Assembly: GCA_036172245.1 (NCBI GenBank)
Contig: JAYWIR010000053.1
Location: forward strand, 1 to 64,000
Reading direction: 5' to 3'
DNA: 64,000 nucleotides
From: Raillietiella orientalis
Lineage: Eukaryota
Shown here: positions 14,001-59,800 of the stretch, piece after piece
How the letters are laid out: every line of letters starts with the position of its first letter
How positions within the stretch are numbered: the first letter of the stretch is position 1
The notes under the pieces: generated by a model
What the model was told of the DNA's origin: nothing
Database searches by the model: none
The model's input: the letters and a program-made list of their open reading frames with translations, nothing else
Made by a program: the position numbers and the translations under genes

Positions 14001-14586
14001 ATGCTGTCTTCCATCCCCGGTGCACTGGCCAACAAATTACAGGTGTGCACCGCCATGCACTCCTCGTTGACCAGGTCACGCTCGGGATTCTGCCCATCTG
14101 GTTTCAGGCGAACGTTGAAATCGCCTGCAACCCGATGGTCATTCCGCACACCTGCTTCGTTCAGCAGTCTCGCCGGAGGGTAAGGAAAAACTCTTTCCTC
14201 GTTCTCCTGTTCTTCAGGTCCTTGCCGCTCGGTGCGTACACGTTCGTTACGATCAGATCGATCGAGTCGGACTACCTGAGAGTCAGCTGGCCGACACGAC
14301 TGTGATCGTCGAACCGCACGCTTCGAGCCGCGGCCTCGACGGCTGGCCGAAGCAGGTAGGCGACACCGCAACTTTTCGCTCTCCCACACCTGTACCATAG
14401 CCGCCCTCCGGAGATCCGTTCGATCTCTTGCGCTTGTTCTGCAGATATCAAGTGGATCTCCTACAGCAGCCCAAGGTCGTAGGACTCCAGAAAGGCGGCC
14501 ATGTCTCGTCTCCTGCCGGTGTCTGTCATGCCGTTCACGTTTTAAACGGCGATGCGCAGACGACGGCAGGAGGAGATTCCCGGCAT
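11005..14586 (-). pseudogene. A1 ORF2 (endonuclease, RT, zinc finger)
   Basis: AGDFN, SIDH, SDH, DLRKAFD, QGDSLSP, YADD and CVRC...PHLLVDC, with multiple frameshifts. Confidence 0.92.
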
Positions 14587-16199
14587 TACTGCTGGGAAGA
14601 TTAAGGTGTGGGGGAGCCCTCCTCTTGCGAGGCGGGCAAGATGTCCATGGGGGTTTCGGCCTTCTCAGGCACCTGAGGCACCTGTTCGGCCTCCACCTTC
14701 TTTATCCTCTCCGTGTCCGCGCGTGGGAGTATCTCAAGCGACGGGTCCCGTGAGTTTCCCACGCTCATAGCACCCTCGCTTGCGGAAGCCATCCCTTCCC
14801 CTTCGACGGGGGAGACGAGCTTCCGTGTTTTTGTGGACTTACGTCCAGCCTTCTTGCGCGGTGCCGTAAAAACGGAGGCTGCGTTTCCGGCCTCCACCTC
14901 GGGGTCGGTAGTGGGGAACATCTGAGGGGAGGCCGGACGCCTTACGGCCTTCTTGCCAGCCTTGGAGGGTTCTGGCTGCAACGAAGCTGCCAGCTCCTTC
15001 GTGGCTCGCGCGAAGGCAACGTTATCGATGGTGGTGTTGATGACGGACGCCGCCGCCGGCTCGCTCTCCTTGCTGTTGACAGTGTCAACAGAGGGGAGGT
15101 CGTCGGTAGCGGCGAGTTCTTTCCGGCAGCGTTCGGCAACATCAAGAAAGCGTTCGACAACGACGCTGCGGTCTTTAATAATCGCGCTACCCAGCTCTTT
15201 CTGCTTCTGTTGGTAGGAGTTTTTCTATTCCATCCTCCTCTCCTTTGATTTTTTGGCCGTTGCCACTTGCCACCCAGTCTCCTGACAAGCTTCCTCAACT
15301 TTTTCGGCGTTGGTGGCCGGGGTCTCGGGTGCGGCCTGGATCTTGGGCACGGGTGGCACAGCCTTCGCGGCAGCTTTCGCCGCCAGCCTTTTCTGCAGAA
15401 GCCGGGCGCGTTTTTTAAGGTTTCTCTTGGAAACCACCCGCACTGCTGCTTTTGGGCACACCTCCCTCGTGTGGCCCATTGTGCCGCATACTTGGCACTG
15501 CACATTGGGACACCTCTTTTTGAGGTGGCCCGACGTATTGCAGAAGCCACAGTATTTCGGCTTCCCCACATACCAGAGGTCGACGGTTTCGCCTTCGACC
15601 ACCAGTTTGTGGGGAAGAGTGCAGCCCTCCTGAACGGTCACGCGCGCAGCAGTGAGGCCGTGTTGCAGCCCCGTGTAGTCCTCGAAAGGACTAACTTTCG
15701 TCCACTGCGCGTAGACCGTTCCGAACTGTTCCAAAGCGGCGCGAACCTGTTCTTTGCGGATTCGCGCGGTGACGCCTAACAGGTGGACCACCATGCTGCG
15801 GTCCGCCGTAGTGGGGAGGAGCCTGCGCGTTTCCATCACAACGGGGGTTTTAAGCAGTCGTTGGGCCAGCTCTGCATGTTTGCAGATGACCTCAACGTAC
15901 TGACCCCCACTGCGGATGGTCACAGCGCTGAGCTCCTCCTCTTTCACATCGAGAGCGCGCATGCCCTTCGAGAAGGCGCGCGCGCTCTCTAAAGAATATA
16001 AATTGCCTACCTTGTAGAACAATGAGGGGTTGTACCCCTCCTCTACATAGGCCGACAATTCCGCCGCGGCTGCAGGCGATGGCGCCGACACAACGGCGCT
16101 CCACGCCCGCGCTGCAGCGGGGACCGATTCTGTGGGGGCGGATGCCCCCACCTCCATCGCCTCTGGGGGCGACGTTGCCGCCGCCCTCTGGCTCTCCAT
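14586..16199 (-). pseudogene. A1 ORF1
   Basis: A 324-aa open stretch with CGFCNTSGHLKKRC and CQVCGTMGHTREVC, later stops, ending at the TAATG overlap (14584-14588). Confidence 0.9.
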
Positions 16200-25500: not shown

Positions 25501-26112
25501 ATTTTCATCGAGGAAAATGTGATCGAGCGATCTTTTCATTCCAGGTTCGCTGACCATCAAGTTGGCGGCGTGCACGGACGCGCACTTCTCGATGGAGAGC
25601 GCGCGCTCACTCGGCCGGCTCCAATCGTCGGAGAGCAGGCGGACGTTGAAGTCCCCAGCAACGAGGTGCGCCACTTGGAAACCGGAGTTGTTGAGCCAGT
25701 GGCTCTGCACCTCACCAATGAAAGCTACTCTTTCTTCGAGGTAGCGATAGCCACTCGGCGCGTAGACGTTCGTAACGACGAGATCGATGGACTCGGAACT
25801 CTTCATGACAAGCTGGCCTATCCGTCCGTCGTCATCGAAACGAACACTACGCACCGCTTCCGCCATTTTTCCTCTTACGAGGAACGCGACGCCGCACGTG
25901 TGTGCGCCGCCGCACCGCCAATGTAGCGTTCCGCCTGCGCGCTCCTCGATTTCGGCTGCCTGCTCGTCGGAGATTACGTGAATCTCCTGCAGGAGCGCGA
26001 GGTCGACGGGGCGCAGGGCGTTGGCTACTAATCGCCTCTTCTCGTCGTTCTGTAGTCCGTTCACGTTCCAACACGTTACGGACAGACGACGAGAAGACGC
26101 GATTCCCCGCAT
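22519..26112 (-). pseudogene. Left C ORF2 (endonuclease, RT, zinc finger), one frame with premature stops at 25372 and 23608
   Basis: CWNVNG, LQEIH, NVYAP, AGDFN, LDH, SDH, DLHKAFD, YADD and CVRC...PHLLLDC. Confidence 0.94.
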
Positions 26113-28034
26113 TACTGCTGGGAAGGTGGCAGCTTTTTGCTCGCTTTATGCGGCGAGCAGACGGCGAGCAGCACGACTGGCTGGAGGGGACGGTCGCCAC
26201 CGTCCTCTGTCGTGCTGCATGCATGTAATGCCTCCACGCTAGGCTGAACCCCGTCGGGTTTCGTGGAGACTTCGCGTTGCTTCGCGGCGAGCGTTGCCTG
26301 GCTGCCTACTCTTGATCGGCGCGCACACGCTTTTGAACGAGTTGTCCTCGTCTCGGTGATCGGAACGGCATCCATTTCGGAGTCCGACCGGCGCATGTTC
26401 GATAGGGTTTCGGCCTTCCGCGAAGCAGTGACAGGTTCTGCTGGATTGACAGCTGTCCTGTTTTCGTTTTCCGTCACCAGAGCATAGCTTTTGGTGACGG
26501 CTGCTTTCCCGGCGCGCGCGTTTTCAGCGTGCTCACGCGCAGTTGCACGAGGGACCTTTGCTGAAGTCTTCTTTATTTCATTACGGTTCCTCACTCCGCG
26601 TGGCACCGTAAATGGAGATTGTGCTCCATGGCCATCTTTGAAGCCATCCGCGTCTTTGGACGGGAGCACTTTCGATGGCTCCGACACGCTCGTCATGGAC
26701 GCTGCTTTCGGAAGGGCTTTTAATCCCTTCGTTGGCATGGCATCCGCGCCAGTCGAGAGCTTGCTCTCCGACTGCGACCGCGTGAGATTTTTCTCCGCTT
26801 TCGCGGTGTTGGATCGCGACGCGGATTTTTTTTTGCCGACTTTCGAAGTCGACACGGCACAACCCTTCTTACCCGATTTGGGCTTTTCAGCCACTGCAGG
26901 AGGTACAGGAATGGATCTGACGGTACTGGAAGTGTCCTTACCGCCGTTGTCCATTGGCGTCCCCGCCGGTTGCTCGAACTCCGAGAGAGCCGGGCGTGCT
27001 TGGGAAGGACAGCTATTGCGCCTAGGGGGAATTACCATTGCCCCGGATTCCCCGCACCCTTTCTTTTGCGGCTTTCCTGCCGCAAGAGGGGGTGCGCAGG
27101 GCTTCGCGTGCGAGGTTTCCTGCTGCTTTGGGGCGACATTCCGCCTCGCGTTTTTACCGAATTTCTGCCGTGGGGTCTCCAGGTTTTTCGCAGATTTTTT
27201 CTTTTTATCCGCGCTTTGTTTTCTAGGATGGAGCTTCGCCGCTGACTTTTTTCGCAAAAGATCCGGGCAATTTTTCAATTGGTGCCCGGATAGTTTGCAA
27301 TAACGGCATTTTCCAGAGGGGCATTTATCCAAACAATGCTCCTCCTTCCCGCATTGCTCGCACGTTTCTACTTTGCCCACGAACCACTGGTGAACGACCG
27401 TGTCTTTCACCTGTAGTTTGGTGGGCAGCAGACGGCGGTCCGGCATTGTAAGCTGGACTCCAGCGACTCCGCTGTGTATGGACGGGAAGTCCTTGAGGTT
27501 GCTACGCACCCTCCACAGCGCATGGACCGTGGCGAATTTCGCCAACGCGTTCCGAATATCAGTATCGGAGATTTCCGACTCGATGTCGAAAATCTCCACC
27601 ACAAATGAGTCGTCCATGGCGGCCGAGAAGACCTTCTGGCCACGGATCGACAACGGGGTGCGCAGCAAGCGTTGCACAAGTGCAGCGTCTTTGCAACGCA
27701 CCTTGAAATAGCCCATGTCTTTTACGGGCATAATGGCGAGAAGGTCCTCCTCCCGCACGCCAACACGGGTCAGTTCATCGTTGAACTGATTCCTTTCGCG
27801 CGCAGAAAGAAAACCATTCACCTTATATCGGTGAGCAGGTCGATAGCCTTGGGCTACGTATGCCCGCAACTCCGACTCGTCGAGTGGTTTTCCTTTGACG
27901 GCTGCTGTGGCAGCAACGTCAGCAAATCTCCTATCCATTGGCGAGAAAGACGAAGTGGAGGCGGCCGTCGGTTCCGCGATTGCAGATCCGGATTCTGTTC
28001 CTCCAACTTCAGTAGCTTTGGGTTGGGTCGACAT
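26112..28034 (-). CDS. Left C ORF1, open (about 640 aa): RRM-like core, two CCHC knuckles, long basic Ser/Ala/Lys-rich tail
   Basis: Uninterrupted ORF with CEQCGKEEHCLDKC and CRYCKLSGHQLKNC; its stop overlaps the ORF2 ATG. Confidence 0.88.
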   Translation of the reverse strand: MSTQPKATEVGGTESGSAIAEPTAASTSSFSPMDRRFADVAATAAVKGKPLDESELRAYVAQGYRPAHRYKVNGFLSARERNQFNDELTRVGVREEDLLAIMPVKDMGYFKVRCKDAALVQRLLRTPLSIRGQKVFSAAMDDSFVVEIFDIESEISDTDIRNALAKFATVHALWRVRSNLKDFPSIHSGVAGVQLTMPDRRLLPTKLQVKDTVVHQWFVGKVETCEQCGKEEHCLDKCPSGKCRYCKLSGHQLKNCPDLLRKKSAAKLHPRKQSADKKKKSAKNLETPRQKFGKNARRNVAPKQQETSHAKPCAPPLAAGKPQKKGCGESGAMVIPPRRNSCPSQARPALSEFEQPAGTPMDNGGKDTSSTVRSIPVPPAVAEKPKSGKKGCAVSTSKVGKKKSASRSNTAKAEKNLTRSQSESKLSTGADAMPTKGLKALPKAASMTSVSEPSKVLPSKDADGFKDGHGAQSPFTVPRGVRNRNEIKKTSAKVPRATAREHAENARAGKAAVTKSYALVTENENRTAVNPAEPVTASRKAETLSNMRRSDSEMDAVPITETRTTRSKACARRSRVGSQATLAAKQREVSTKPDGVQPSVEALHACSTTEDGGDRPLQPVVLLAVCSPHKASKKLPPSQQ

Positions 28035-28112
28035 CGTCGTCAAAATGTACGACGCCAAGATGAAGCGGATGAAAGCACGGAGACGAGAGCGAAGAAAAAC
28101 ACGTCCGCACTC

Positions 28113-32752: not shown

Positions 32753-33212
32753 CGTTGTCGTCGAGCGTATGCTCGACGACGTCGCCTTTGAACGAGCGGC
32801 GGTGGAGCTTGCTTTGTCCTTGCAGCGTCCGCTTAAATCCGCGAAAAAGGCCGTAAGGCGTTCGACCTCGAACAAGAATGCGGAGATTCCGAACTCTGAC
32901 GCAGAGGCGGAAAACACAGCCTGCGGCATCGCGGCCTCCCTTTCGAAGGCCAATCGCACGAACAAGGCTACCCGCAAGATTGTTCTGTTTCTAGAAAAGG
33001 TAGAGATAATTGAGGGAAGCGAGCGTGCCAATAAAGTAAGGAACTCCGGGGACTCCCCTCGAGAGGTAACCTCACGCTGCGTCCTCGGAGGGAGGGAAAG
33101 TGTAGAGTCTGTGCCCCAGAAGCTTCAAGTGCCTAAGATGGCTGCGGTCGCCTTACTCGTCCTTCCCACCTGTCCGTTGACAGGTGGTCCAACGCCAGGT
33201 TCCCAGTCTTAA
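32753..33212 (+). pseudogene. A2 ORF1 C-terminal part
   Basis: Open to the TAATG at 33210-33214; homologous to the A1 ORF1 tail. Confidence 0.85.
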
Positions 33213-36200
33213 TGCCGGGAATCGCCTCTCGCCGCCGTCTGCGAATTGCTTGTTGGAACGTCAACGGGCTATGCAACGACGGCAAGAGACGAGACGTGGG
33301 CTCCACCCTGGCATCGTTCGACCTGGTGCTGCTGCAAGAGATCCACGTGATCTCCGCAGATCAAGCAACGGTGATCGGGCGTACCTCGGGTGGACGGCTA
33401 CTGTGGATTTGCGGCACTGTTAAATCTTGCGGTGTCGCGTTCCTGCTCCGTCCAGCTGTCGAGGCTGCGGCAAAGGGCGTACGGTTCGATAGTGCCGGTC
33501 CCGTCGGGCACTTGACCATCAGGAGGTTGGACTCCATCGATCTGGTCATTACATACGGGTACGCCCCCAGCAACAGCGACGCGCTAGAGGCAAAGGCAAG
33601 GAGAGATTTCTTCCTTACCCCGAGGCGCGAATATCTCGACGATGCGAAAGTGGGCAAATCGCACCTAATCGCAGTTGACTTTAACCTGCGCCTGCTGTCG
33701 GGTGCGTCCGACACACTTCGGAACCGCGTCAACGAGCTGTGCGCAGAGATGCACACGCGAAACTTGTTCGCGGGAGATCCGTAAATTGCCGACAGCATAG
33801 ATCACGTGTTTCTTGATCAGCGCCTATGCTCACACGTGGGCAGGCGCGGCAAGTTACCGTCGGAACTGTCGGACCATGACCGCATCGTACTCGAGGTGCG
33901 CCCACGCGATAAGGGTTCCGCCGTCATCTACGTGGCGCTTACCGGGAAACTGACTGAAACTTCCGGAAGCCGCAAAGCTTCTCCGCGGATTCATACGAGC
34001 TTTCAGCTTGCAGATGCCTCAGGACTTAGACCGCTTCAAGCGCTCGGTCCGGAATTTTGGTGACGAGTTCCCTATGAACCTCCAGCCTGCCGGGTTTGGT
34101 GAAAGCGTGCGTAACGAGACACGGTATTTATAATCTCGATGTTACGCGCAAACATTAGACGTACGCAGGCTAGCCGAATACCGTGCGAAAGCCGAGAGGC
34201 AGGCGTGGCCATACGAAAAGGCCAGCTTACTGGACGATCAGGGTTCGAGGCACTTGGCCCCCGCCCAGGTAAAGGGCTTATTAAAAAAATTCTACTCCTC
34301 CCTGTACGCGCGCGCTGCACCGGAACGGGATGTCTCGCGACTTCTTCTACCGGAGGGCGCTCCGGCGATCGGGGAGGAAGATAGAAAGGCCCTCGACGAT
34401 GAGCGAGATCATTTTGTCCATAGGAAAGTACAAGAGGTGGAAGGCTCCAGGGGAGGACGGCCTGCCAGCGGAGTTTTCTCAATGTTTCGAGGCAGAGCTC
34501 ACTCCTTTGGTGAAGAAACTCACCTTGCTGTTCCGCGAAACGTGCGACGTCCCTGCCTCGTTTCGTTCGGCAAAGGTGCGTCTCCTTCCTAAGGGAGCAG
34601 ACCTTCGGAGCATGAGAAACTGGCGGCCGATTACCGTGATCAACGCGGATGCCAAGTTGCTGGCGAAATTGTGGGCTGAACGCCTGGGGCGGTTAGCGGA
34701 AAGTTTCATTTGCCCGGAGGAGACATATGCTGTTCCCGGGCGGAGCATGGATGCCAACCTGTTCCTCGCCAGCACCTTTCTCGCGCTCCAACAGGAAAGG
34801 GTCAGGATGGGCAACCGGACTTCCGGAATGTTTGCCGCTAGGAAACGGGAAGCTTGGGTGGAGGAGGGAGCCCTCGCAGTCGCAGTCGATTTGTATAAAG
34901 CTTTCGACTGTGTAAACCAGAGGCTCCTCCTGGAGCTCCTGGAACGCTTGGGCTTCCCGGTCTCTTTGCTGACCTACCTGCTATCCTGCTGGCGCGACGC
35001 GCTCATCCAGATCTTTTTCAGTGGACACACCGTGCACGGCGTACCGGTGCAACGCGGCATACGGCAGGGAGACAGCCTGAGTCCCATGCTCTTCAGTACA
35101 TAATTGGATTTGGTTCTGAGAGCGTACAGGGAAACTCTAGCGCACCTGCCGCGCGACTATCCTGGTACGCCCGTGGTGTCAACATATGCGAACGACCTAC
35201 TGCTGCTGTTTCCTATGTCCACCCGGGCTTCGACGGTCGAGGAGTTCTTCGACCTGCTAAGTCGGGGAACCGGGCTTGAGGTGAACAGCGCGAAGTCGTC
35301 CGTCATGCCAATCGGTGCAGCGTGGGCAAGGCAGCCATATGTGGTCCGTTTAAGGATCCCCACGGTACGGTACTTCAAGTACCTCCGTGTACCGATGGCT
35401 GATTATCTCCCTTCGGATGCGTGTTCCAGCTGCCTTCAAAAGGTAGAGACGGCGATCGGTCCGTTCCAAGGCCGCAGGTTTCTCCTGACGGAAAGGGCCG
35501 CGGTGTGGAACGCATTCGCGGCGCCCCTCCTCCGTTCCCTGCTTTTTGTTTGTCCCCCACCACAGAGAATAAAGAGCGGACGAAGGACCTCCTAAGGATT
35601 GCCCTGTGGGGTAATGGGAGAGCCCGAGTCCGACTTTAGGACTTGAGCACTCCGCGTCGGGACGGCGGTCTCGGCCTCTTGACGCTAGAGCGGCTAGAGC
35701 TCCAGCTCCAGTTTCGGTTACTCGCCCTAAAGGCGTAATATTGGAATAACAGTTGGTGCGAGCCCGCACGCCTACTCGTCGAGCAGGCTACAGGGAAGGT
35801 GGGACTGTCATCCTTCCTTGCGCTCCGTCGACGCCGCCGTGTCGGTGACTGCGGGTTGCAGCTACGGAGAGTGGCTGACCTGATTAGGAAGAACGCAGGA
35901 TGGCTCTGCTGTCGCCCCGTTAACGGACCTGCATGGCTGCAAGAGACGGTGCAGACGTGGGCAAGGAGCAAGCAGCAACCCAAGGAGGGCAGAGACAATT
36001 CTTCGCACGTAATGACCGACTCCCGGAGAGTCAGGCGAGAGAACCCCCAAAAACCAGCAGAGTCAGGCGAGAGAACCCCCAAAAACAAGCGTGGGCAAGA
36101 ACAACTCTTCTTGCTGCAATGCTGTTTCCGCTCTCGGAACACTTAAACGGCAACACTGCTGCGAAATTGGATGTTTACCTCAAAATCTGCGGTACGGAGA

Positions 36201-43362: not shown

Positions 43363-43467
43363 TCCCCGCTGTGTAGAGCGGACGTGCTTTTCCTGCGCTC
43401 CGCCTGCGTGGCAAAGCGAGTGTTTTTTCTTATTAAGTGATTTGTGCGTGAACATCGTCGGTGTCCG

Positions 43468-45338
43468 ATGGCAGCGTTGCCAGAGGACACCGCGATGGAA
43501 GTAGTCGTGATGGAGGCTTGTTCGTCCCCACAGCCTACTGGATCAGGGGCTTCCGCCCCGGAATCGTCCCCGGCGACGCCGAGGTCATGGAGCGCCATGG
43601 TGGCCGCGCCTAGCGTGGAAGCCATGGCCGAGATGAAAGCCTACAAGAAAGCGGGGTATAAACCCTCGCTAGTCTACAAGGTAGGCAACCTTTTCGATGG
43701 GCGAACTGCACGCGCCTTTACGAAGGCGCTGCAGGACGCCAATATTTTTGAAAAAGATCTCGACGGCCTCTGCGTCCTCAGCGGCGGGCAGCGGGTCGAG
43801 GTGGTATGCAAGGATATCACCTTGGCCCGACACCTGATCACCGACCCGCTGATCGTTGATGGTCGGAAGATCTTACCGATAACGATGGACCGCTCGGTGG
43901 TGGTCCATCTCACTGGGATCTCAAGTCGCATGACGAGGTCAGCGGTTCGAGAACAGCTACAAGAGCACGGAGAAGTGCACGCGTTTTGGCCGAAGTCCAC
44001 GATTTTCAGAGGCTACAATAGCCTTTTCGGAGGTCAAGCTGCGGCGCGTATCACGGTAAAAAAGGGTGGTGCGCTTCCCCATAAGCTGGAGGTCTGCCAA
44101 GAAGCGGTGGACCTCTGGTACGTGGGGAAACGCCAATTTTGTGGCTACTGCAATGCAGTAGGCATCTCCGAAAAAGGTGCCCGAACATTGTGTGCCACCT
44201 ATGCGGCGAAAAGGGTCACGATCGGCGCGTGTGCCCCAAGCCCCCCACCCCGGTGCCCCCTGCCGCCAAAAAGGCGCAGGGAAAACGTGGAAAGCTGGTG
44301 GAAAGACCAGCTCGCGAAAATGGCCGTTCCCAACTGCCAGCCTCCCTTCCTCCCGTACAGACGTCGGAGCAAATAGCTCCCGTGGACGCGGGAATGGAGG
44401 AGGCTTGGCAGCTGGTTCAGGCCAGAAAAGAGAAAAAAAAGATAGTGATGATAGAAGAAAATTCGGAGAAGAAAACTGCCGGCAACAAGAAAAAAGCCGC
44501 GCCGCTTTCAAAAAAAAAACTCAACGAACGCTCGGTGGCACTGGAACGCTTAGCCGTTCCTGCCGAGTCCGCCCGCGGCAATGTTCGCGGAACAGCTGAT
44601 GCGGACGCGATGAATACTCGCGTGGACGAGCCCAATCTACGTTTAGAGGGTGAGACGCGAGACTCGCGCGCCGACGGCCAGGACGCCGCGCTCGATAAAG
44701 TCGCGGAGGAGCCCGCGGCAACGTTCTCGGTCAACGATGACGCCGCGCTCGATAAGGTCGAGGAGCATCCTGGGGAAACGGTCGCCGCTGGCGAAGACGC
44801 GGCCTTCGAGAAAGCGGCGGAGGAGCTCGCAGCAACGCTCGCCGAGCGCGAAACCCCGTCGTGCAAGGGCGTACGCAGGTCGGCCCGACGAAGAAGGCCC
44901 CGCAGGTGAGTGCGACCTGTAAGCCGGAAGCGGATCCTCCTCCTCGGAGGCACCCATAGGAAGTCGGGACGCAAGTCCCAGAAACCAAGGAGGCTCCTCC
45001 CCTCCACCAGCGAGGAGTAGAAGCAGGAAGCCAGCGGTAGCGTGGGAATGCCGGAGGTTGAACTCCCACGCTCGGAAGCCGTCGAGCCGGCAACCCCCAT
45101 ATAGAAGGGTGAGCAAGAAGGCGAAGTCCTCCCTGCAGTCGCCGAGCCTGAACAGCCCGCCCCCATGGAGGAGGGCCAACAGGTAGGCGCGACCCCACCT
45201 GAGGGTGACCCGCTCGACGCGCCGGCACCGATGGAGGAGGAGGAAAAGGTGCCTTCAGTACCTGTCCCCCCTCCCCCTCTACCTAGCGTCCCGCCCCAGC
45301 AGGTGGCGGACGCCGCATCGCCGTTTTCCCTGGACTAA
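43468..45338 (+). pseudogene. D1 ORF1
   Basis: CGYCNAVG (frameshift) and CHLCGEKGHDRRVC; ends at TAACA. Confidence 0.9.
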
Positions 45339-45806
45339 CACCTGGGCTCGCCAGTCGCCGTCGGATTCGCGCGGCCTGTTGGAACGTCAACGGGCTGCGC
45401 GACGACGGCAACAGGCGAGATACAGCCGACACTCTGCGTGAGCTCGACCTGGCGCTGCTGCAGTAGATCCACGTGATCACCGCGGCAGACGCCCAGGAAA
45501 TCGAGACGATCGCGGGGGGTCGGCTGTATTGGCGATGCGGCCTCCGCAACACCTGCGGGGTCGCGTTCTTCGTGAAGCCGGCCATCGACGCTGCCGTAAA
45601 GGGCGTGCGGTTTGATGACGACGGTCGGATCGATCAGCTGATTCTCTGCTGGTCCGACTCGATCGACCTAATCGTCACAAACGTGTATGGCCCTAGCGGC
45701 AAACAGGGTTACCGCGACCGCACCAGGCTGCTGGAAACCCTGAAGCGCGACTGGCTGGCGGACAGGAACGGGCGGAAGGCTCACCTGATAGCGGGAGATT
45801 TCAATC
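45338..45806 (+). pseudogene. D1 ORF2 endonuclease N-terminal half
   Basis: CWNVNG, LQ*IH, NVYGP and AGDFN. Confidence 0.9.
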
Positions 45807-45884
45807 GAGTGCGGACGTGTTTTTCTTCGCTCTCGTCTCCGTGCTTTCATCCGCTTCATCTTTGCGTCGTACATTTTGACGACG

Positions 45885-47780
45885 ATGTCGACCCAACTTG
45901 AAGCTACTGAAGTTGGAGGAACAGCATCCGGATCTGCAATCGCGGAAGCGACGGCCGCCTCCACTTCGTCTTTCTCGCCAATGGAGAGGAGTTTTGCTGA
46001 CGTTGCTGCCACAGCAGCCGTCAAAGGGAAACCTCTCGACGAGTCGGAGTTGCGGGCATACGTAGCCCAAGGCTATAGACCTGCTCTCCGATATAAGGTG
46101 AGTGGCTTTCTTTCTGCGCGCGACGGGAATCAGTTCAACGATGAACTGACCCGTGTTGGCGTGCGGGAGGAGGACCTTCTCGCCATTATGCCCGTAAAAG
46201 ACATGGGCTATTTCAAGGTGCGTTGCAAAGACGCTGCACTTGTGCAGCGCTTGCTGCGCACCCCGCTTTCGATCCGTGCCCAGAACGTCTTCCCGGCCGC
46301 CATGGACGACTCATTTGTGGTTGAGATTTCCGACATCGAGTCGGAAATCTCCGATACTGATATTCGGAACGCGTTGGCGAAATTCGCCACGGTCCATGCG
46401 CTGTGGAGGGTGCGTAGCAACCTCAAGGACTTCCCGTCCATACACAGCGGAGTCGCTGGAGTCCGGCTTACAATGCCGGACCGCCGTCTGCTGCCCACCA
46501 AACTACAGTTGAAAGACACGGTCGTTCACCACGTTCAATGCGGGAAGGAGGGGCATTGTTTGGATAAATGCCCCTCTGGAAAATGCCGTTATTGCAAACT
46601 ATCCGGGCACCAATTGAAAAATTGCCCGGATCTTTTGCGAAAAAAGGCAGCCGCGGAGCTCCATTTTAAAAAACAAAGCGCGGATAAGAAGAAAAAATCT
46701 GCGAAAAACCTGGAGACCCCACGGCAGAAATTCGGTAAAAACGCGAGGCGGAATGTCGCCCCAAAGCAGCAGGAAACCTCGCACGCGAAGCCCTGCGCAC
46801 CCCCTCTCGCGGCAGGGGAGCCGCAAAAGAAAGAGTGCAGGGAATCCGGGGCAATGGTAAGTCCCCCTAGGCGCAATAGCTGTCCTTCCCAAGCACGCCC
46901 GGCTCTCTCGGAGTTCGAGCAACCGGCGGGGACGCCAATGGACAACGGCGGTAAGGACACTTCCAGTACCGTCAGATCCATTCCTTCACCTCCTGCAGTG
47001 GCTGAGAAACCCAAATCGGGTAAGAAGGGTTGTGCCCTGTCGACTTCGAAAGTCGGCAAAAAAAAATCCGCGTCGCGATCCAACACCGCGAAAGCGGAGA
47101 AAAATCTTACGCGGTCGCAGTCGGAGAGCAAGCTCTCGACTGGCGCGAATGCGATGCCAACGAAGGGATTAAACGCCCTTCCGAAAGCAGCGTCCATGAG
47201 GAGCGTGTCGGAGCCATCGAAATTGCTCCAGTCCAAAGACGCGGATGGCTTAAAAGATGGCCATGGAGCGCAATCTCCATTTACGGCGCCACGCGGAGTG
47301 AGGAACCGTAATAAAATAAAGAAGACTTCAGCAAAGGTCCCTCGTGCAACTGCGCGTGAGCACGCTGAAAACGCGCGCGCCGGGAAAGCAGCCGTCACCA
47401 AAAGCGATGCTCTGGTGACGGAAAACGAAAACAGGACCGCTGTCAATCCAGCAGAACCTGTCACTGCTTCGCGGAAGGCCGAAATCCGATCGAACATGCG
47501 CCGGTCGGACTCCGAAATGGATGCCGTTCCGATCACCGAGACGAGGACAACTCGTTCGAAAGCGTGTGCGCGCCTATCAAAAGTAGGCAGCGAGGCAACG
47601 CTCGCCGCGAAGCAGCGCGAAGTCTCCACGAAACCCGACGGGGTTAAGCCTGGCGTGGAGGAATTGCATGCATGCAGCACGACGGAGGACGGTGGCAACC
47701 GTCATCTCCAGCCAATCGTGCTGCTCGCCGTCTGCTCGCCGGATAAAGCGAGCAAAAAGCCGCCACCTTCCCAGCAGTAA
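45885..47780 (+). CDS. Right C ORF1, open but with an in-frame deletion at the first zinc knuckle
   Basis: VVHHVQCGKEGHC here versus VVHQWFVGKVETCEQCGKEEHC in left C. Confidence 0.8.
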   Translation: MSTQLEATEVGGTASGSAIAEATAASTSSFSPMERSFADVAATAAVKGKPLDESELRAYVAQGYRPALRYKVSGFLSARDGNQFNDELTRVGVREEDLLAIMPVKDMGYFKVRCKDAALVQRLLRTPLSIRAQNVFPAAMDDSFVVEISDIESEISDTDIRNALAKFATVHALWRVRSNLKDFPSIHSGVAGVRLTMPDRRLLPTKLQLKDTVVHHVQCGKEGHCLDKCPSGKCRYCKLSGHQLKNCPDLLRKKAAAELHFKKQSADKKKKSAKNLETPRQKFGKNARRNVAPKQQETSHAKPCAPPLAAGEPQKKECRESGAMVSPPRRNSCPSQARPALSEFEQPAGTPMDNGGKDTSSTVRSIPSPPAVAEKPKSGKKGCALSTSKVGKKKSASRSNTAKAEKNLTRSQSESKLSTGANAMPTKGLNALPKAASMRSVSEPSKLLQSKDADGLKDGHGAQSPFTAPRGVRNRNKIKKTSAKVPRATAREHAENARAGKAAVTKSDALVTENENRTAVNPAEPVTASRKAEIRSNMRRSDSEMDAVPITETRTTRSKACARLSKVGSEATLAAKQREVSTKPDGVKPGVEELHACSTTEDGGNRHLQPIVLLAVCSPDKASKKPPPSQQ

Positions 47781-50700
47781 TGCGGGGAATCGCGTCTTCT
47801 CGTCGTCTGTCCGTAACGTGTTGGAACGTGAACGGACTACAGAACGACGAGAAGGGGCGATTAGTAGCCAACGCCCTGCGCCCCTTCGACCTCGCGCTCC
47901 TGCAGGAGATTCACGTAATCTCCGACGTGAAGGCAGCCGAAATCGAGGAGCGCGCAGGGGAAACGCTACATTGGCGGTGCGGCGGCGCACACACGTGCGG
48001 CGTCGCGTTCATCGTAAGATGAAAAATGGCGGAAGCGGTGCGTAGTGTTCGTTTCGATGACGACGAACGGATAGGCCAGCATGTCATCAAGTGGTCCGAG
48101 TCTATCGATCTCATCGTTACGAACGTCTACGCGCCGTGTGGCTCTCGCTACCTCGAAGAAAGAGTAGCTTTCTTTGGTGAGGTGCAGAGCCACTGGCTCA
48201 ACAACTCCGGCTTCCAAGTGGCGCACCTCGTCGCTGGGGACTTCAACGTCCGCCTGCTCTCCGACGATTGGAGCCGCCCGAGGGCGCGCGCGCTGCCCAT
48301 CGAGATGTGCGCGTCCGTGCACGCCGCCAACTTGATGGTCAGCGAACCTGGAATGGAAAGATCGCTCGATCACGTTTTCCTCGATGAAAACCTGCATTCG
48401 CGTGTGGGTAGGAGAGGAAGATTGTTGACTGAGCTTTCTGACCACCACAGGTTGGAGTTTGAGATCCTTCCGCCAGGCAGGTGGCCTCCGTTGCAAAGCT
48501 GGAGGATGCAGGCGGATTGGCTTAGCCAACCGGAGGCTGCGGAGCATCTACGTGGATACCTCCGGGGCTTTGCCATTCAAGAACTTGCGGACTGGGACGA
48601 TCTCAAAAGATCTGTCCGCGAGTTCTGTTGCCAATTCCCCTTGCACCGGCTTCCACGCGGTTTCGGAGAGGGCGTGGCCAACAGTAGAGACTTTCTGCAG
48701 GCTCGCACGTTTTCGAGACGCGCGGATGTCCGGTGTCTCGCAGAGTACAAGGCGAGGGCCGAGCGCCAGGTCTGGCAGTCCGGAGCATCATGCCTGTTGG
48801 ACGACAAGGGCCAGGAATGTTCGGCCCCAGCCGAAGTACGCCGCATTTGAGACGCTACTACTCCTCGCTCTACGCGGAATCCCCGACGGAGGATATTCTT
48901 TCTGAGATACTCCTGTCTCAGGATGCTCGTGTTGTCGGCGAGGAGGAACGCGAACGTCTCGACGAGCCCTTCGGGGCGCATGAATTTTCGTCCGCCATCG
49001 CTGGGCTGAAGAGACGCAAGGCGCCAGGCGAGGATGGGCTCCCTGCAGAGTTTTATCAGTGCTTTGCAGTGGAGCTCATTCCCTTGATGCTGAAACTCGC
49101 GACGCTGATGAGTGAATCCGGGAATGTCCCTGATTCCTTCCGCTCAGCGAAGGTGCGTCTCCTGCCGAAAGGCGGAGACTTGCGACAACTTAACAACTGG
49201 CGTCCGATCACCTTGGTGAACTCGGACGTCAAGTTGTTTTTTAAGCTGTGGGTCGCGCGGTTAGGAAGTATCACGGAATCTGTGGTGAGCCCGGAACAAA
49301 CCTACGCGGATCCGGGACGATCCATGGAGGCGAACATCCTTTTCGCGCGTACATGGATGCAGCCGCAGGAAGTTGTGGCGCAGCAAAGCCAGGCTGCTGC
49401 GAAAGTCACTGCCGCAGGCAAAAAGAACAGGCGCCGACGGCAGGAGGGAACGACAGGTGCCTTGGCGGTCGCGGTCGATCTCCACAAGGCGTTCGACTGC
49501 GTAAACCAGAAGCTGCTTTTGGAGCTTATGGAACGCCTTGGGTTCCCGGCGCAACTCCTGCTGTATTTGCGCGCGTGCTGGCGCCACGCGCTAACCAGCA
49601 TCACTTTTAGCGGCTGCCGCGTGTATGGTATTCCCGTTCGTAGGGGCATCCGACAGGGCGACAGCTTAAGCCCGTTGCTCTTCAGCATCTTCTTTGAGTT
49701 GGTGCTAAGAGCATACAGGCTGACGCTGTCTCACTTGCCAAGCTCCTGCCCGGGAACGCCTGCCGTGGCCGCCTACGCTGATGACCTGCTTCTTCTGCTC
49801 CCCATGTCCATCCCGGCGTCCAGTGTCGAGGATTTCTTCGACCTGATTCGTCGGGGAGCGGGCGTGAGCGTGAACAGAGAGAAGAGCGTGGTCGTTCCTG
49901 TGAGTACGTCGTGGGAGGGGCAGTCCCACTGGATCCGCCTGGGGATCCCCACGGGCGGGTACTTTAAGTACCTTGGCGTTCCGTTGGGCGATTTCGGCGC
50001 AGCCGAAGCGTGGGCGGACTGTCTTCAGAAAGCAGAGTTGGCCATCAGCCCGTTCTTTAACGGCAAGTTCACCTTGCAGGAACGGGCGACTATTTGGAAC
50101 ACCTTTGTGGCCCCCCTCCTCCGTCCCCTGTTTTTTGTTTTGGACCCCCCCTATGCGGCAAAACAGCGGGCTAAGCGCCTGCTCAGAAGAGCTCTCTGGG
50201 GTCCGGCGAGATCCAGGATCCGCCTTAAAGATTTGTCAGCTCGGCGTCGGGATGCTGGTTTGGGTATCCTGATAATGGAGCGAACCGGACTGCAGGTGCA
50301 GTTCCGACTGCTGGCACTGTGTGCCCAGCTATGGAGATCCCCCCTGTGTGTGCCAGCTCGCATTCTCCTGCGGAGATGCGCCGGCAGCGGAGGATTTCTC
50401 TCTCTTTTGCCGGGCACTCAATACAGGAAGCGGGGTTTCGGGTTTCCATTGCGGCAGTTGACCGCACTTCTGGAAGCACACTCTTGGATCTCCTGCCGCC
50501 CAATGAACTTTGAAGCTTGGCGGCAGGAGTCTGTTGAATCCTGGGCGGCGTTCCAAGGAATACGCCCTGAAGATCTTCGCCCCCTGCGCCAATTTTTTCC
50601 ACTATCCTTGGAAGAAGTACTGCAGGAAGAGGTGAAGTTTTCTACCCTGACTGCCCCGCCTCTTGCCGCAGCGCTGTCTGCCCTCAGGGCAAGAAACCAC

Positions 50701-51372
50701 AGTTACCAACCGGCGAGGTGGGAGGTTTCCTGCACGATAGCGGGAAGAACCAAACTTCTTGGCACCTGGAAGACAAGTGAGTTGGCGGACGCCGCCACTC
50801 CTCGTATTACTGCAAAGGGACTCCTCCGGTGGGCAGAAGAACTTGCTGTCACCCCCGAAGAACTTGTAGTCCCTCCACAGTGTATGGACAGTTCGCTGCT
50901 CCCCCTTGCTTGGAAACAAGCCGTGCTGCTTTCCGTTCACTGGGGTTTTCAGTGCAACGAGCGTTGGCATCGTGACTCCGGGGGACTTGCGTCTGCGAAC
51001 TGCGTTCGGTGCGGATCGACGGAGTCGATTCCGCACCTACTTCTGGACTGCGGTGTCCTACAAGGACTGTGACGTAGGCTGGCAACAGCACTATTGCATC
51101 CCGTGGACACCGCAAGAGACTTGCTGCGACGATTCTTCAGGCCGAGCGGGCTTTCACTAAGCGCAAGGATTCCAACCATCGGTTGCATACGCGCGATAGT
51201 CTCCGTCCGCCAGGCGTTGGTAATCAACGGACAGCACCAAGAGGTAATCAGCAAAGCATCCTTCTACATGGGAGCATCCGCTAGATGGCCTCATTTGACA
51301 GAGGAGACAAAGAGGAATCTCGCCGCAATACACCGCCGGTTTACACACCCTCATCAGCGGCCAACCCCGTGA
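47780..51372 (+). pseudogene. Right C ORF2
   Basis: All endonuclease, RT and finger motifs; stops at 48020 and 51070, frameshift near 48848. Confidence 0.94.
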
Positions 51373-51685
51373 TCATTGACCTACCCTCCATAAACTAAAT
51401 TTGTATTTTCTTTTTACACCCGCGTCCCCATAGGCTCCGGAACATTTTAGGTGCTCATTGTATAAATCCCCGTGAGTACGGAGCCTAACCAAACACCCGT
51501 TACCCTTCCCTACAGTTTTTGATTTTTGTTTGGTTCCATTCATTCCCCCCACGCTGCGAGCGGTTTGTTTTCCAAGCCTGCGTGCCGGTAATTTTTCTAT
51601 GTTCTCGGTCGTTCTCTTGGTTGGGGACATTGTCCCTGACCAGTTTATTATTATTAATAAACGCCCCGGCGTGACCGGGTGATAA

Positions 51686-55131: not shown

Positions 55132-56889
55132 ATGCCAGCGATGCCTGAGGACACCACGATGGAGGTAGGTGTGGGGGAGGCTTGCCCACCCCCACAGCCT
55201 ACCGAATCAGGGGCGTCCGCCCCGGAATCGCCCTCGCCGCTTAAGGCGAGGAGCTGGAGCGCCATGGTGGCCGCGCCGAGCGCGGAAACCATGGCCGAGA
55301 TGGCGTCCTACCTGGCAGCTGGGTACAAGCCCAGCTTGGTTTACCAGGTAGGCAATCTCTTTGACGGGCGAACTGCACGCGCTTTTTCGAAAGCGCTGCA
55401 GAACGCCAACGTGTTGGAAAAGGACCTTGACGGTCTATCCGTGCTCAGCGGGGGTGAGCGCGTCGAGGTTGTCTGCAAGGACATCACCTTGGCGCAAAGC
55501 TTGATAACCACCCCGCTGAACGTGGACGGACGCAAGATCCTACCAGTCACGATGGACCGCTCCGTAGTGGTCCATCTGACAGGGATCACCAGCCGCAAGA
55601 CGCGGTCTACGGTTGGTGATCAGTTAATAAAGTACGGGGATGTTCACGCGCTTTGGCCAAAGGCCACAATCTTCGATGGCTACGATAGCCTTTTCGGAGG
55701 GCAGGCCGCCGCGCGCGTGACGGTGAAGGAGAGTGGGCTTCCCCACAAACTAGAGGTCAATGGCGAAGTCGTAGACCTCTGGTACGTGGGGAAACCCCGC
55801 ATTTGAGGCTACTGCAATGCAGTAGGACACTTGCGCAAGCGGTGCCCGAACGTTGTGTGCCACTTATGCGGGGAGAAGGGCCACGTACGCCGCGTATGCC
55901 CTAAACGCCCCACTCCGGTGCCGTCTGCTGCAAAGAAAGCACAGGCAAAATGCGGTAAACTGGTCGAAAGACCAAAAAGAGATACTGGCCGGCAGCAGCC
56001 GCTGGCCCCTGTTCCTCCCACACAGGCGTCGGAAGAACAACCCTCCGAAGACGCGGGAGTCCAAGACGACTGGCAGTTGGTCAACGCCAGGAAGGAGAGA
56101 AAGGTGCACTTCGCGGAACCCGCGAAAGCGGTAAAAAAGACAGCCGGCAAGGCGAACAAACCTGGACCGCCCTCTAAGACCATGCAGGAGTGTACGGTAG
56201 CACTGGAGCGCATAGCCGTTCCCTAGATTGCCACCCGGGGCGACGAGCCTTCCCTCGCCGTTTCCGCCGCGCCCGCGGTTCGCGACGGCGAACAATCTGT
56301 TTACACAGAGGGTGAGCCGCGCGAAATAGCGACGGTCGAAGCCGAGGACGCCGCGTTCGCTCAGGCGGCGGAGGAGCTCGCGGCCACGCTGGCGGAGCGT
56401 GAGAACCCCTCGCGCAAGGCCGTGCGAAGGCCGGCTCCCGCGAAAAAGGCCCCCACAGGTCAGTCGGACCTGGCGGCCGGAAGTGCATCCTCCTCCTCGG
56501 AGGTACCCCCCAGGAAGTCGGGACGCAAGTCCCAGAAACCCAGGAGGCGCCTCCCCTCCACCAGCGAGGAGGAGAAGTAGGAAGCTAGCGGTAGCGTGGG
56601 AATCCCGGAGGGGGAACTCCCATTCTCGGAAGTCGTCGAGCCGGCCACCCCCATGGAGGAGGGTGAGCAGGGGGGCGAAGTCCTCCCTGCAGTCGCCGAG
56701 CCTGAACAGCCCGCCCCCATGGAGGAGGGCCAACAGGTAGGCGCGACCCCACCTAAGGGTGACCCGCTCGACGCGCCGTTACCCATGGAGGAGGGGGACC
56801 AGGTGCACGCAGCGCCTGACCCTCCTCCTCCACCTAGCGTCCCACCCCAACATGTGGCGGACGCCGCATCGCCATCTTCCCAGGAATAA
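55132..56889 (+). pseudogene. D2 ORF1
   Basis: Stop at 55804 in the first knuckle; CHLCGEKGHVRRVC; frameshifted tail with three PMEEG repeats. Confidence 0.9.
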
Positions 56890-59800
56890 CACCTGGGCTC
56901 GCCAGTCGCAGTCGGATTCGCGCCGCCTGTTGGAACGTCAACGGGCTGCGCGACGACGGTAACAGGCGAGATACGGCCGATAACCTGCGTGAGCTCGACC
57001 TGGCCCTGCTGCAGGAGATCCACGTGGTCACCGCGGCAGACGCCCAGAAAATCGAGGCGATCGCGGGGGGTCGGCTGTATTGGCGGTGCGGCCTCCGCAA
57101 CACCTGCGGGGTCGCGTTCTTAGTGAAGCCGGCCATCGACGCGGCCGTGAAGGGCGTGCGCTTCGATGACGACGGTCGGGACGGTCAGCTGATTCTCAGC
57201 TGGTCCGACTCGATCGAATTTATCGTCACGAATGTGTACGCCCCCAGCGGTAAACAGGGATACAGCGACCGTACCAGGCTGCTGGATTCCCTGAAGCGCG
57301 ACTGGCTGGCGGACACGAACGAGCGGAAGGCTCACCTGATAGCGGGAGATTTCAATCTCCGTCTGCTAACAGGTGAGCCAGAAACACAAGAGAACGCGAT
57401 GAACAAGTTGTGCGCCGCCATGCGTGCGCGCAACTTGTTCGCGGGAGAGAGGGGAATGGTCCGCAGCATCGACCACGTCTTCCTCGACGCTGACCTGTGT
57501 TCACGGGTCGGCAAACGGGGGAGGGTTGCGTCGACGTTGTCGGACCATTCCCGGTTAATTTTCGAGATGCGGTCTCGTGACAAGGGACCTCCATCCAGGG
57601 ATTGGCGTCTGCCGGGGGACTGGACGCGACTCTCAGGTGCGAAGGAATACCTTCGCGAATACCCGAGAGGTGTCACGCTCCGGAATCTCCAGGACTGGGA
57701 CCTTTTTAAAAAATCGGTCCGCGAGTTCTGTGAGCAGTTCCCCCTGGATCCCCTGCCCCTTGGATTCGGCGAGGGTGCTCGCAACCATCGGGCCTATTTA
57801 CAGGCTCGCAGGTACGACAGAACCCCTAATGTCCGTCGCCAGGCCGAGTACCGCCCCGGGGCCGAAAGCCAAGCCTGGCAATCCGGGTCGGCCAGCTTGC
57901 TGGACGACCAGAGCCGGGAATGTTCGTCTTTGGCGTCGGTACGGCATCTCTTGCGGAGTTTTTATTCCTCCCTTTACGCCCAGGAGCCCCCGGATCGAAA
58001 CGCCTCTCGACGCTTGCTTCCGGATGGCACCCCGGCAATAGGGGAGGAGGAGATGGAAAGCCTCGACGAGCCTTTTACCACCGGCGAAATTCTCGCCGGT
58101 ATCAAAAGGCTCAAGAGGCGTAAAGCTCCAGGGGAAGACGGCTTGCCCGCGGAGTTCTTTCAGAGCTTCGCGGAAGAGCTGGCACCCCTGCTGCTTAAGT
58201 TGATCAGGCTGATCCGAGAGGAAGGCGATGTTCCCGCCTCGTTTCGGTCAGCCAGAGTGAGGCTCCTTCCGAAAGGGGGAGACCTCAGGGATTTAAAGCA
58301 CTGGCGTCCGATCACAATCGTGAATACGGACGCCAAGTTGATCGCAGGGCTATGGGCTTCGCGTCTGGGGCAGGTGGCAGAATCCGTAATTAGCCCGGAG
58401 CAGACTTATGCTGTTTCCGGGCGAAGTATGGATGCCAACCTCTTCTTCGCAAGCACATGGGTGCACCTGCAGAGAAGAGAGAAGAAAGGGATAGGGAAAG
58501 TCGGCAACCCCACATTGGGGCCGCCAGCCGGGCTGGGAAGGGACTACCGGGCGGGGAAGGGGGCCCTAGCGCTCGCAGTCGATCTCCACAAGGCTTTCGA
58601 CTGTGTAGACCAGGAACTTCTCTTGGAGCTCCTGGGTCGCATGGGCTATCCCCCCTCCCTGATTTCCTACCTGCGCTCTTGCAGGCGGAATGCGATAATT
58701 ACCGTCTCTTTCAGCGGTCAAAAGGTGTATGGCGTGCCGGTGCGGCGGGGCTTAAGGCAGGGAGATAGCCTCAGCCCCCTGCTCTTCAGCACCTACTTTG
58801 AGTTGGTGCTAAGAGCGTACAGGGTGACTTTGGCCCCATTGCCGAGCTCGTGCCCCGGCACGCCCGCCGTAGCACCGTACGCCGACGATCTTCTGCTTTT
58901 GTTGCCAATGTCCACCCCGGCAAAGGCGGTCGGAGACTTCTTCGATCTGCTAAGCCGCGGGACCGGACTGCAGGTTAACAGGGCGAAGTTCTCGGTTGTG
59001 CCAATAGGTGCGGCGTGGGCAGGGCAGCAGGACTGGGTCCGTCTGGGGATCCCCACGGCGAGGTGCTTCAAGTACCTTGGTGTGCCGTTGGGGCACTACT
59101 CCCCTGCGGAAGCGTGGTCCAGCTGCCTCCAAAAAGTCGAGACGGCGATCGGCCCGTTCCTGGAAGGCAAGTTTCACTTGCCGGTACGGGCCGCGGTTTG
59201 GAACGCCTTCGCGGCCCCCATCCTCCGCCCCTTGCTTTTTGTTTGCCCCTAAACCGTGGAATCCAAGAAGAGGACGAAGGACCTCCTCCGTATCGCCCTT
59301 TGGGGCAAGGGGAGGCCCCGAGTCCCACTGAAGGACTTGTGCGCTCCGCGTCGGGACGGCGGTCTTGGCCTCCTGACGCTGGAGCGCGTTAAGAAGCAGC
59401 TGCGGAGCCGAACCCTCGCCATCGTAGCGAAGATGTGGAGCACCCCTTGGTGCACTCCAGCCCGCCTCCTGGCCAGCCGTGTGTCCCGGTGCGATGGACT
59501 CGCGTGTTTTCTTCTCAGCCGTGGCCGGAAGATGCGAAGATGCGGCCTACTGCTCGGGCGCATGGCAACATTGGCCAAGGAGAACAGCTGGGTGGTTTGC
59601 TGACCCGCCAACTCCCTCGCCTGGCTGGAGGAAAATATTGGAACGTGGGCAGTGGTTAACCAGACAAGCCACGAGACGTGGAATCGTCTTCGTTGCAGCC
59701 CCTACGCCCGCTGCACGCTGCGGAATATCCTGGAGAGTCCAGCAAGATGCATGTGGGCAGAGACGACCTGCCTAGCTACGGCCCTGCCCTCCCTGAAGAG

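What the first reader, a model, noticed from the sequence alone, without database searches (positions are those of the whole stretch)
47768..47789. ORF1 stop and ORF2 start overlap inside a conserved hairpin
Seen: TAATG at 14584-14588 (-), 26110-26114 (-), 33210-33214 and 47778-47782, and TGATG at 10943-10947. In A1 and C the context TTCCCAGCA-GTAA-TGC(C/G)GGGAA folds to 8 of 9 pairs around a GUAA tetraloop. A2 keeps the outer stem. D2 has a different perfect stem, CCCAGG-AATAACA-CCTGGG. Known: silkworm SART1 uses UAAUG translational coupling, and GUAA is a GNRA tetraloop. Inference: termination-reinitiation is controlled by a stem-loop that presents the stop codon in its loop. F lacks an obvious stem.
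Basis: partly seen in the sequence, partly recalled or inferred. Interest (0 to 1): 0.7.

Follow-up and report, generated by a model that had tools for sequence, protein, structure and literature searches.

The report
Three hairpins flank LINE stop-start junction
In a family of jumping genes (LINE retrotransposons), the stop of the first gene and the start of the second overlap inside a small RNA hairpin that is flanked by two better-supported hairpins, and together they probably help ribosomes restart on the second gene, a known trick in a new arrangement.

Summary
The sequence is as described. ORF1's TAA (47778-80) overlaps ORF2's ATG (47780-82) in an 8-bp hairpin (47768-89) of an L1-like LINE. 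Corrections: 26110 and 47778 are arms of one 13-kb inverted duplication; in family C ORF1 stops 14 nt before the ATG; TGATG at 10943 is copy-specific; F does have a stem.

Across 16 subfamilies from this genome a hairpin nearly always spans the ORF2 start, but in shifting registers. Fixed-pair covariation fails; a register-free arm-swap test gives modest support. The stop lies in the loop in only 9 of 16. It is base-paired in the J lineage and 8-14 nt upstream in C and K. The whole hairpin also fits inside a terminating ribosome, so 'presenting' the stop is unlikely.

Two unreported hairpins are better supported: SL1, ending 22-29 nt before the junction, and SL3, about 30 nt after the AUG. Best reading: SART1-like termination-reinitiation aided by a three-hairpin cassette; function untested. 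The scan had already noted this hairpin and the AUG-less (ACA) lineage on other DNA of this genome.

The parts
45885..47780 (+). ORF1 of the family-A LINE copy (first Met to TAA); CCHC-type motifs by eye, no Pfam hit
47733..47754 (+). SL1, upstream hairpin (7 bp, 8-nt loop) in the ORF1 tail; 3' end 23 nt before the stop; in family A an upstream repeat offers an alternative 5' arm
47768..47789 (+).
47778..47782 (+). TAATG: ORF1 stop overlapping ORF2 start (27 of 29 family-A copies)
47809..47837 (+). SL3, downstream hairpin over the codons for the endonuclease W-N-V-N-G strand
47780..51072 (+). ORF2 (APE endonuclease, RT) of this copy; broken: TGA at codon 81 and frame breaks before the RT piece 48688-51072
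26103..26124 (-). Twin of SL2 in the other arm of the inverted duplication (not independent)
14577..14603 (-). Family C junction: first ORF1 stop 14603-14601, then SL2 with a second TAA and the ATG
33200..33221 (+). Family B junction hairpin with TAATG in a 6-nt loop
10933..10954 (+). Decayed family E junction (copy-specific TGA; element broken near 10973)
56879..56897 (+). Family D junction hairpin, 6 bp in a shifted register; TAACA at 56887-56891, no AUG
56918..56953 (+). SL3 of the family D copy, 15 bp, -24.8 kcal/mol
45328..45346 (+). D' junction, weak stem with a U-U mismatch; twin at 28573-28591 (-)
8296..8316 (-). Family F stem (8 bp); this copy has lost 3 nt and with them the family's TAG stop; ATG at 8289-8287

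Best explanation
These are L1-like LINEs whose ORF2 is made by termination-reinitiation on a bicistronic RNA, helped by three hairpins. SHOWN (sequence and computation): ORF2 is in the -1 frame; its start overlaps the ORF1 stop or lies 8-14 nt after it; three hairpins recur at fixed places in diverged subfamilies. INFERRED: (1) a ribosome translating ORF1 melts SL2, which otherwise masks the AUG and may slow the ribosome as it nears the stop; (2) SL1, just outside the exit side of a ribosome at the stop, refolds and holds the post-termination 40S, as the upstream structure does in victoriviruses; (3) SL3, about 30 nt after the start, brakes the small subunit over the start codon like the alphavirus DLP or the SART1 downstream structure; (4) since position fixes the start, Kozak context is poor, a short gap is tolerated (C, K) and AUG could be lost (D). 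SL2 is a gate over the ORF2 start, not a display of the stop.
For: Stop-start overlap in 14 of 16 subfamilies, gaps of 14 and 8 nt in C and K. No XXX YYY slippery heptamer in 15 of 15 subfamilies scanned. SL2: native arms fold better than swapped arms, p = 0.011 for 6 families, 1e-4 for 9; the energy gap (-2.41) is matched by 0 of 107 background windows. G re-paired both arms, D and E shifted register, and the nested J/K lineage replaced the whole 5' arm yet keeps a stem over the AUG. Positions 1-7 are invariant at 5 of 7 sites in six families where 2 of 41 four-fold sites are. SL1: beats synonymous recoding at p<0.05 in 13 of 16 subfamilies and ranks in the top 1-6% of windows in 6 of 6 families, while the encoded peptide varies; it ends 22-29 nt before the junction. 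SL3: p<=0.03 in 8 of 10 families, best of 112 ORF2 windows, mean pair probability 0.87-0.97 in 11 of 11; A and H re-paired it in another register. Arm-swap gaps of SL1 (-4.31) and SL3 (-3.97) exceed all 104 background windows. D-type ORF2 shows synonymous excess (9:2, 12:6, 10:6 codons). Precedent: SART1, victorivirus, DLP at 27-31 nt.
Against: No RNA, ribosome or protein data. SL2 alone is weak: it beats synonymous recoding in 1 of 16 subfamilies, ranks only in the top 8-66% of windows, shows no fixed-register covariation (64% paired, 123 of 500 shuffles), and RNAalifold finds no consensus structure over SL1+SL2; 4 of 107 background windows reach its 6-family p and one nearly reaches its gap (-2.39); it is nearly lost in H and D' (-6.0, -5.1) and has ensemble probability 0.00-0.29 in H, D3, G. 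SL3 has only 3 pairs with two-sided change (139 of 500 shuffles), its core is inherited with the W-N-V-N-G codons, and other ORF2 windows score close to it (2.9e-5 and 1.1e-4 against 4.4e-6). SL1 and SL3 were found after looking; subfamilies are related, so combined p-values overstate. One genome only; many copies may be segmental duplicates. A YAG sits 2-6 nt before the start in 14 of 16 subfamilies.
Confidence: 0.52

Rival explanations
1. Termination-reinitiation occurs through stop-start proximity alone. SL2 is a by-product (a C-rich ORF1 tail beside G-rich first codons, perfected now and then by template switching), and SL1/SL3, if selected, serve another RNA role such as RNP packaging, stability or reverse transcription.
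For: SL2 fails the synonymous and fixed-pair tests and is weak in H and D'. Other ORF2 windows also show excess structure. F, the distant family, has a different single stem.
Against: The three peaks sit at -46, -10 and +40 in a 300-nt profile over 10 families, at distances that fit the two faces of a ribosome on the start; J/K rebuilt a stem over the AUG from a new 5' arm.
Confidence: 0.22
2. The conserved pyrimidines plus CAG are a 3' splice acceptor; a spliced RNA without ORF1 makes ORF2p and could supply D's missing AUG from an upstream exon.
For: The motif fits (Y)nNCAG; G's change falls on the free -4 position; a YAG is present in 14 of 16 subfamilies, shifted by 1-3 nt in J.
Against: D' (10 of 10 copies) and K (5 of 5) have no YAG within 12 nt either side of position 1; none of 19 pattern hits with an altered 5' side forms a recurrent spliced-copy class; it does not explain why the stop stays at or near the start.
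Confidence: 0.11
3. One reading: SL2 displays the ORF1 stop in a GNRA loop, and this display controls termination-reinitiation.
For: Stop fully in the loop in 9 of 16 subfamilies, the likely ancestral state; G keeps a GNRA loop with TGA; F's TAG lies at the loop edge of another stem.
Against: Stop paired in J1, J2, J4, partly in J3, H, K, outside in C; GNRA in only 4 subfamilies; the mRNA cleft holds 10-12 nt downstream single-stranded (PMC4872096).
Confidence: 0.07
4. ORF2p is made as an ORF1-ORF2 fusion by -1 frameshifting stimulated by SL2 or SL3, which would explain the F-P-x-x residues conserved in the ORF2 frame before the AUG and D's missing AUG.
For: ORF2 is in the -1 frame; variation at positions 0, 6, 9 falls on ORF2 third positions; family A has C AAA AAG 8 nt before SL2.
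Against: No canonical heptamer in 15 of 15 subfamilies; J/K lack F-P; in C and K ORF1 stops before most of that stretch; AUG is kept in 13 of 16 subfamilies.
Confidence: 0.08

Closest known systems
SART1 (Bombyx mori non-LTR element), UAAUG translational coupling (Kojima et al. 2005; seen only through reviews PMC5972666, PMC10275272, PMC3894237, PMC2881922)
   Same: Bicistronic LINE, UAAUG overlap, structure downstream of the overlap (SL3 here, predicted).
   Different: Here an L1-like element (SART1 is R1-clade and telomere-specific, recalled); an upstream hairpin and a hairpin over the junction as well; natural variants TGATG, TAACA and 8-14 nt gaps; nothing tested by experiment.
Victorivirus HvV190S stop/restart (PMC6631646 passages; PMC5972666 section 15)
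   Same: AUGA/UAAUG overlap with a structure within about 32-38 nt upstream and no calicivirus motif 1.
   Different: There an H-type pseudoknot; here a simple hairpin (pseudoknot test negative, p = 0.35); a nuclear retrotransposon, not a virus.
Alphavirus downstream loop, DLP (PMC4872096 passages)
   Same: Stable stem about 27-31 nt after the start, in coding sequence; SL3's core starts about 29-36 nt and its extended base 23-32 nt from the A of AUG.
   Different: DLP acts on a scanning ribosome on a monocistronic mRNA when eIF2 is phosphorylated; no such evidence here.
Human LINE-1 ORF2 translation (Alisch et al. 2006, through PMC5972666 and PMC2881922)
   Same: Same broad clade by best solved relative (E = 1.7e-48); ORF2 translation depends on ORF1 translation.
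   Different: 63-nt spacer; no overlap. That L1 tolerates loss of the ORF2 AUG is recalled, not seen in a call.
Calicivirus / influenza B TURBS
   Same: UAAUG stop-start; upstream element; near-cognate starts still work at reduced rate (PMC10275272 passage).
   Different: No UGGGA motif 1 upstream (2 of 251 copies).

Membership tests
APE-type L1-group LINE | ORF2 with N-terminal APE endonuclease followed by RT | tested here: met
   Pfam PF03372 and PF00078 on 56838-59249 and 4773-8036
APE-type L1-group LINE | RT closer to L1 than to R2 | tested here: met
   Human L1 ORF2p E = 1.7e-48, R2 proteins 4e-14 or weaker
APE-type L1-group LINE | Separate ORF1 with nucleic-acid-binding motifs | tested here: inconclusive
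   CCHC-type motifs by eye in A; Pfam zf-CCHC only in the F copy's ORF1
APE-type L1-group LINE | Placement in the L1 or Tx1 clade by RT tree with reference elements | not tested
   Apart from one unnamed 71% hit, relatives are distant, mostly 23-33% identical; no reference tree was built
SART1-type translational coupling | UAAUG stop-start overlap | tested here: met
   27 of 29 A, 24 of 26 B, 19 of 20 E, 13 of 13 I copies; not the first stop in C
SART1-type translational coupling | RNA structure downstream of the overlap | tested here: met
   SL3 predicted and above synonymous recoding in 8 of 10 families; prediction only
SART1-type translational coupling | ORF2 translation depends on ORF1 termination and on the structure | not testable with these tools
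   needs reporters
TURBS-dependent reinitiation | UGGGA motif 1 upstream of the stop | tested here: not met
   2 of 251 copies within -90..+10
Victorivirus stop/restart | H-type pseudoknot just upstream | tested here: not met
   SL1 loop against linker, native versus swapped p = 0.35 over 12 families; single families (B, B2, G, H) can pair
-1 programmed frameshift | X XXY YYZ heptamer in the ORF1 frame before a structure | tested here: not met
   0 of 15 subfamilies
Alphavirus DLP | Stable stem 25-40 nt after the start codon | tested here: met
   SL3, -14 to -30 kcal/mol over +36..+80, base 23-32 nt from the A
Alphavirus DLP | Initiation without eIF2, trapping in ES6S | not testable with these tools
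   needs experiments
Any Rfam family | Covariance-model match | tested here: not met
   0 matches to E = 1 in 47600-47960

The most novel reading that the evidence does not exclude
A compact, TURBS-free reinitiation cassette in a nuclear retrotransposon RNA: an upstream hairpin that holds the post-termination ribosome, a hairpin that masks the start until ORF1 translation opens it, and a DLP-like downstream brake. The three together would place the ribosome on ORF2 by distance alone, well enough that lineages moved the stop 8-14 nt, rebuilt the middle stem from new sequence, or dropped AUG for ACA. The subfamilies form a ready natural mutant series for the open question of how LINE ORF2 is translated.
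Probability: 0.3. Interest if true: 0.75.

Novelty: new variant of a known kind. Interest (0 to 1): 0.5.

Why it matters
How LINEs translate ORF2 is still open; the reviews read here cite only SART1 and human L1 as tested cases. This clade offers 16 natural versions of a 120-nt junction in which stop type, stop-start distance, start codon and stem register vary while three hairpins persist, so short reporters could tell which features reinitiation needs. It also moves attention from the hairpin over the stop to the two flanking ones.

Tried and rejected
RNA evidence: no RNA holder listed for 45300-48300; no evidence either way. Other species: no relative confirmed in metagenome contigs (144 pattern matches, none confirmed); the one 71% protein hit came without DNA. 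A loose pattern search gave 731 matches against 283 control and little use. Fixed-register covariation for SL2: one search was mis-registered by two columns and is void; the corrected one search is negative. RNAalifold consensus over SL1+SL2: none. Pseudoknot between SL1 loop and linker: p = 0.35. D versus D' over 400 codons is void, since D' copies are interrupted; redone on 110 codons. TURBS motif, slippery heptamer, Rfam: negative. Kojima 2005 could not be read, so SART1's stem could not be compared in position or shape with SL3. Fisher-combined p-values are used for ranking only, as background windows reach about 1e-2 and below.
Full report
Setting. The window is G000:C53:1-64000 of a 210-Mb eukaryotic assembly; the host was not identified. 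It is a pile of nested non-LTR retrotransposons: 10 of 37 open frames scanned hit RVT_1, three hit Exo_endo_phos, and the best solved relative of ORF2 is human L1 ORF2p (E = 1.7e-48; R2 proteins 4e-14 or weaker). Public relatives are distant, mostly 23-33% identical, apart from one unnamed 71% hit. Bases 18822-32229 and 41705-55035 are an inverted duplication at 93% identity.

The observation. At 47768 the 22-mer folds into 8 of 9 pairs round GUAA. ORF1 ends at 47780 and ORF2 starts there in the -1 frame with an APE endonuclease N-terminus; this copy's ORF2 is broken at codon 81. Four details need correcting. The sites at 26110 and 47778 are one event, duplicated. In family C an in-frame TAA ends ORF1 14 nt before the ATG in 22 of 25 copies, and the two CAA copies are derived. 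The TGATG at 10943 is private to that copy. Family F has an 8-bp stem round its real stop, a TAG 13 nt before the ATG (p = 0.026 against synonymous recoding of the ORF1 tail); the window's F copy has lost that TAG.

Sampling. Genome searches scored 40 of 193-843 candidates per DNA query and 150 of 2909 for the D protein query, so copies are the best matches, not a census. Of 257 distinct junctions, 235 fell into 11 clusters of three or more; 22 singletons or pairs were left out. D was split into D (29) and D' (10). A pattern that left the 5' arm nearly free and an HMM scan revealed a lineage without the TTCCCAG arm; a follow-up pattern found 86 places against 0 control (that pattern demands both arms). 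Twenty were fetched; four (L328, L336, L337, L338) were dropped because their ORF1 side was broken or unrelated, leaving J1 (5), J2 (3), J3 (1), J4 (2), K (5). On a tree of the first 420 nt of ORF2, J/K are nested beside E/G/A/H, so the TTCCCAG arm is ancestral.

A stem spans the ORF2 start in all 16 local folds, from -12.7 (G) to about -5 kcal/mol (D', H), but not with the same pairs. A, B, C and I share one register; D is shifted by +1; E and G by -1, G with both arms changed; in J/K a new 5' arm pairs with the stop-start pentanucleotide itself. Fixed-pair counting therefore finds nothing: 64% of cells paired, 123 of 500 shuffles as high, and no RNAalifold consensus. Against synonymous recoding SL2 passes in 1 of 16 subfamilies. 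A register-free test does support co-variation: native 5' and 3' halves fold better than halves swapped between families (p = 0.001 for 11, 0.0024 for 7, 0.025 for 5; 0.011 for 6 and 1e-4 for 9). In 107 background ORF2 windows 4 reach the six-family p and none reaches the gap of -2.41 kcal/mol, the nearest being -2.39. Positions 1-7 are invariant at 5 of 7 sites in six families whose four-fold sites are invariant at 2 of 41, and wobble positions of both frames are kept; in C these bases lie after the stop and are identical to A's. So something acts on these nucleotides beyond protein, probably the stem, at modest strength.

Is the stop presented in the loop? The first ORF1 stop is fully looped in 9 of 16 subfamilies, fully paired in J1, J2, J4, partly paired in J3, H, K, and outside the stem in C. 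What persists is a stem over the start: AUG has unpaired probability 0.00-0.67 in the 13 AUG-bearing subfamilies, while the ACA of the three D-type ones is open (0.95-1.00; one lineage, so one event). A ribosome holds 10-12 nt downstream of the P site in its cleft (PMC4872096 passage), so SL2 cannot be folded when the stop or the start is read (inference). A gate fits; a display does not.

Two stronger hairpins. A profile from -200 to +100 over 10 families has three troughs, at windows starting near -40, -10 and +40. SL1 ends 22-29 nt before position 11, encodes unrelated peptides in different families, beats synonymous recoding in 13 of 16 subfamilies (not B, I, J3), and ranks in the top 1-6% of 500 windows in 6 of 6 families. 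In family A an upstream repeat gives it an alternative arm and its local pairs vanish in the wider ensemble. SL3 covers the W-N-V-N-G codons, passes in 8 of 10 families (not I, H), is the best of 112 ORF2 windows though two others come near, and has been re-paired in another register in A and H. In fixed register it is 80% paired (12 of 500 shuffles) with only 3 two-sided changes (139 of 500). Arm-swap gaps for SL1 and SL3 exceed all 104 background windows. Both were found after looking, and the families are related.

Mechanism. No subfamily has a canonical slippery heptamer (0 of 15), no TURBS motif (2 of 251 copies), no general pseudoknot, no Rfam match. A stop kept at or within 14 nt of the start in every subfamily fits coupled termination-reinitiation, for which overlaps and short separations are described (PMC5972666 passages and section 15). 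SL1 sits where the victorivirus upstream structure sits (PMC6631646 passages); SL3 sits where the alphavirus DLP works (27-31 nt, lower limit 25; PMC4872096 passages) and on the side where SART1 needs structure (PMC10275272 and PMC3894237 passages). The D lineage has TAACA in 47 of 52 copies, a first Met at about codon 170, open frames of 1,215-1,221 codons in three fetched copies and synonymous excess, so its ORF2 was used without AUG; earlier notes of the scan said so for other DNA of this genome, and I confirmed it in part. Splicing at the CAG stays possible: a YAG is present in 14 of 16 subfamilies but absent in D' and K, and no spliced retrocopy class showed among 19 hits.

Novelty. Stop-start coupling in a LINE is known from SART1. 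Seven literature searches (listings and abstract starts, with passages read from six papers) showed no report of hairpins on both sides of an L1-type junction or of this register-shifting stem; most subscription papers, the SART1 paper included, are not held, and no supplements were read. Verdict: a real feature, a new variant of a known kind, function untested; interest 0.5.

Noticed in passing
window 18822-32229 vs 41705-55035: 13.4-kb inverted duplication at 93% identity; D'-then-A nested pairs recur at similar spacing on many contigs, so arrays seem to spread by segmental duplication and copy counts overstate insertions.
   Followed up: partly
window about 45807-51690: The family A element sits in the same orientation inside the endonuclease region of a D' copy, just after the G-D-F-N codons; a 5-nt target duplication is possible but was not established.
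   Followed up: partly
ORF2, 36-nt windows starting about 130 and 769 nt from position 1 (six-family alignment): Two more windows with folding above synonymous recoding in most families; unexplained.
   Followed up: no
L213:4736(-): A D-related single copy has TAACG (ACG, a near-cognate start), a possible step between AUG and ACA or a copy-specific change.
   Followed up: no
L326-L334 (J1, J2): Junction reads ATGATG: two in-frame AUGs, giving both an AUGA and a UGAUG overlap with one TGA.
   Followed up: no
L074 and L226 (B, B2): SL1 differs between B and B2 by a U-A to C-G change, and each loop can pair with the linker behind it; B2 rests on 3 diverged copies and the pseudoknot test over all families was negative.
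   Followed up: partly
window about 10973: The E copy is cut at the base of SL3 by what looks like the 3' end of an antisense element; the other 39 scored E copies match only up to this point because they lack the insertion.
   Followed up: no
L301, L303: D-related copies whose sequence before the junction differs from D's and from each other but ends in the same six letters; subfamily, truncation or insertion site unclear.
   Followed up: no
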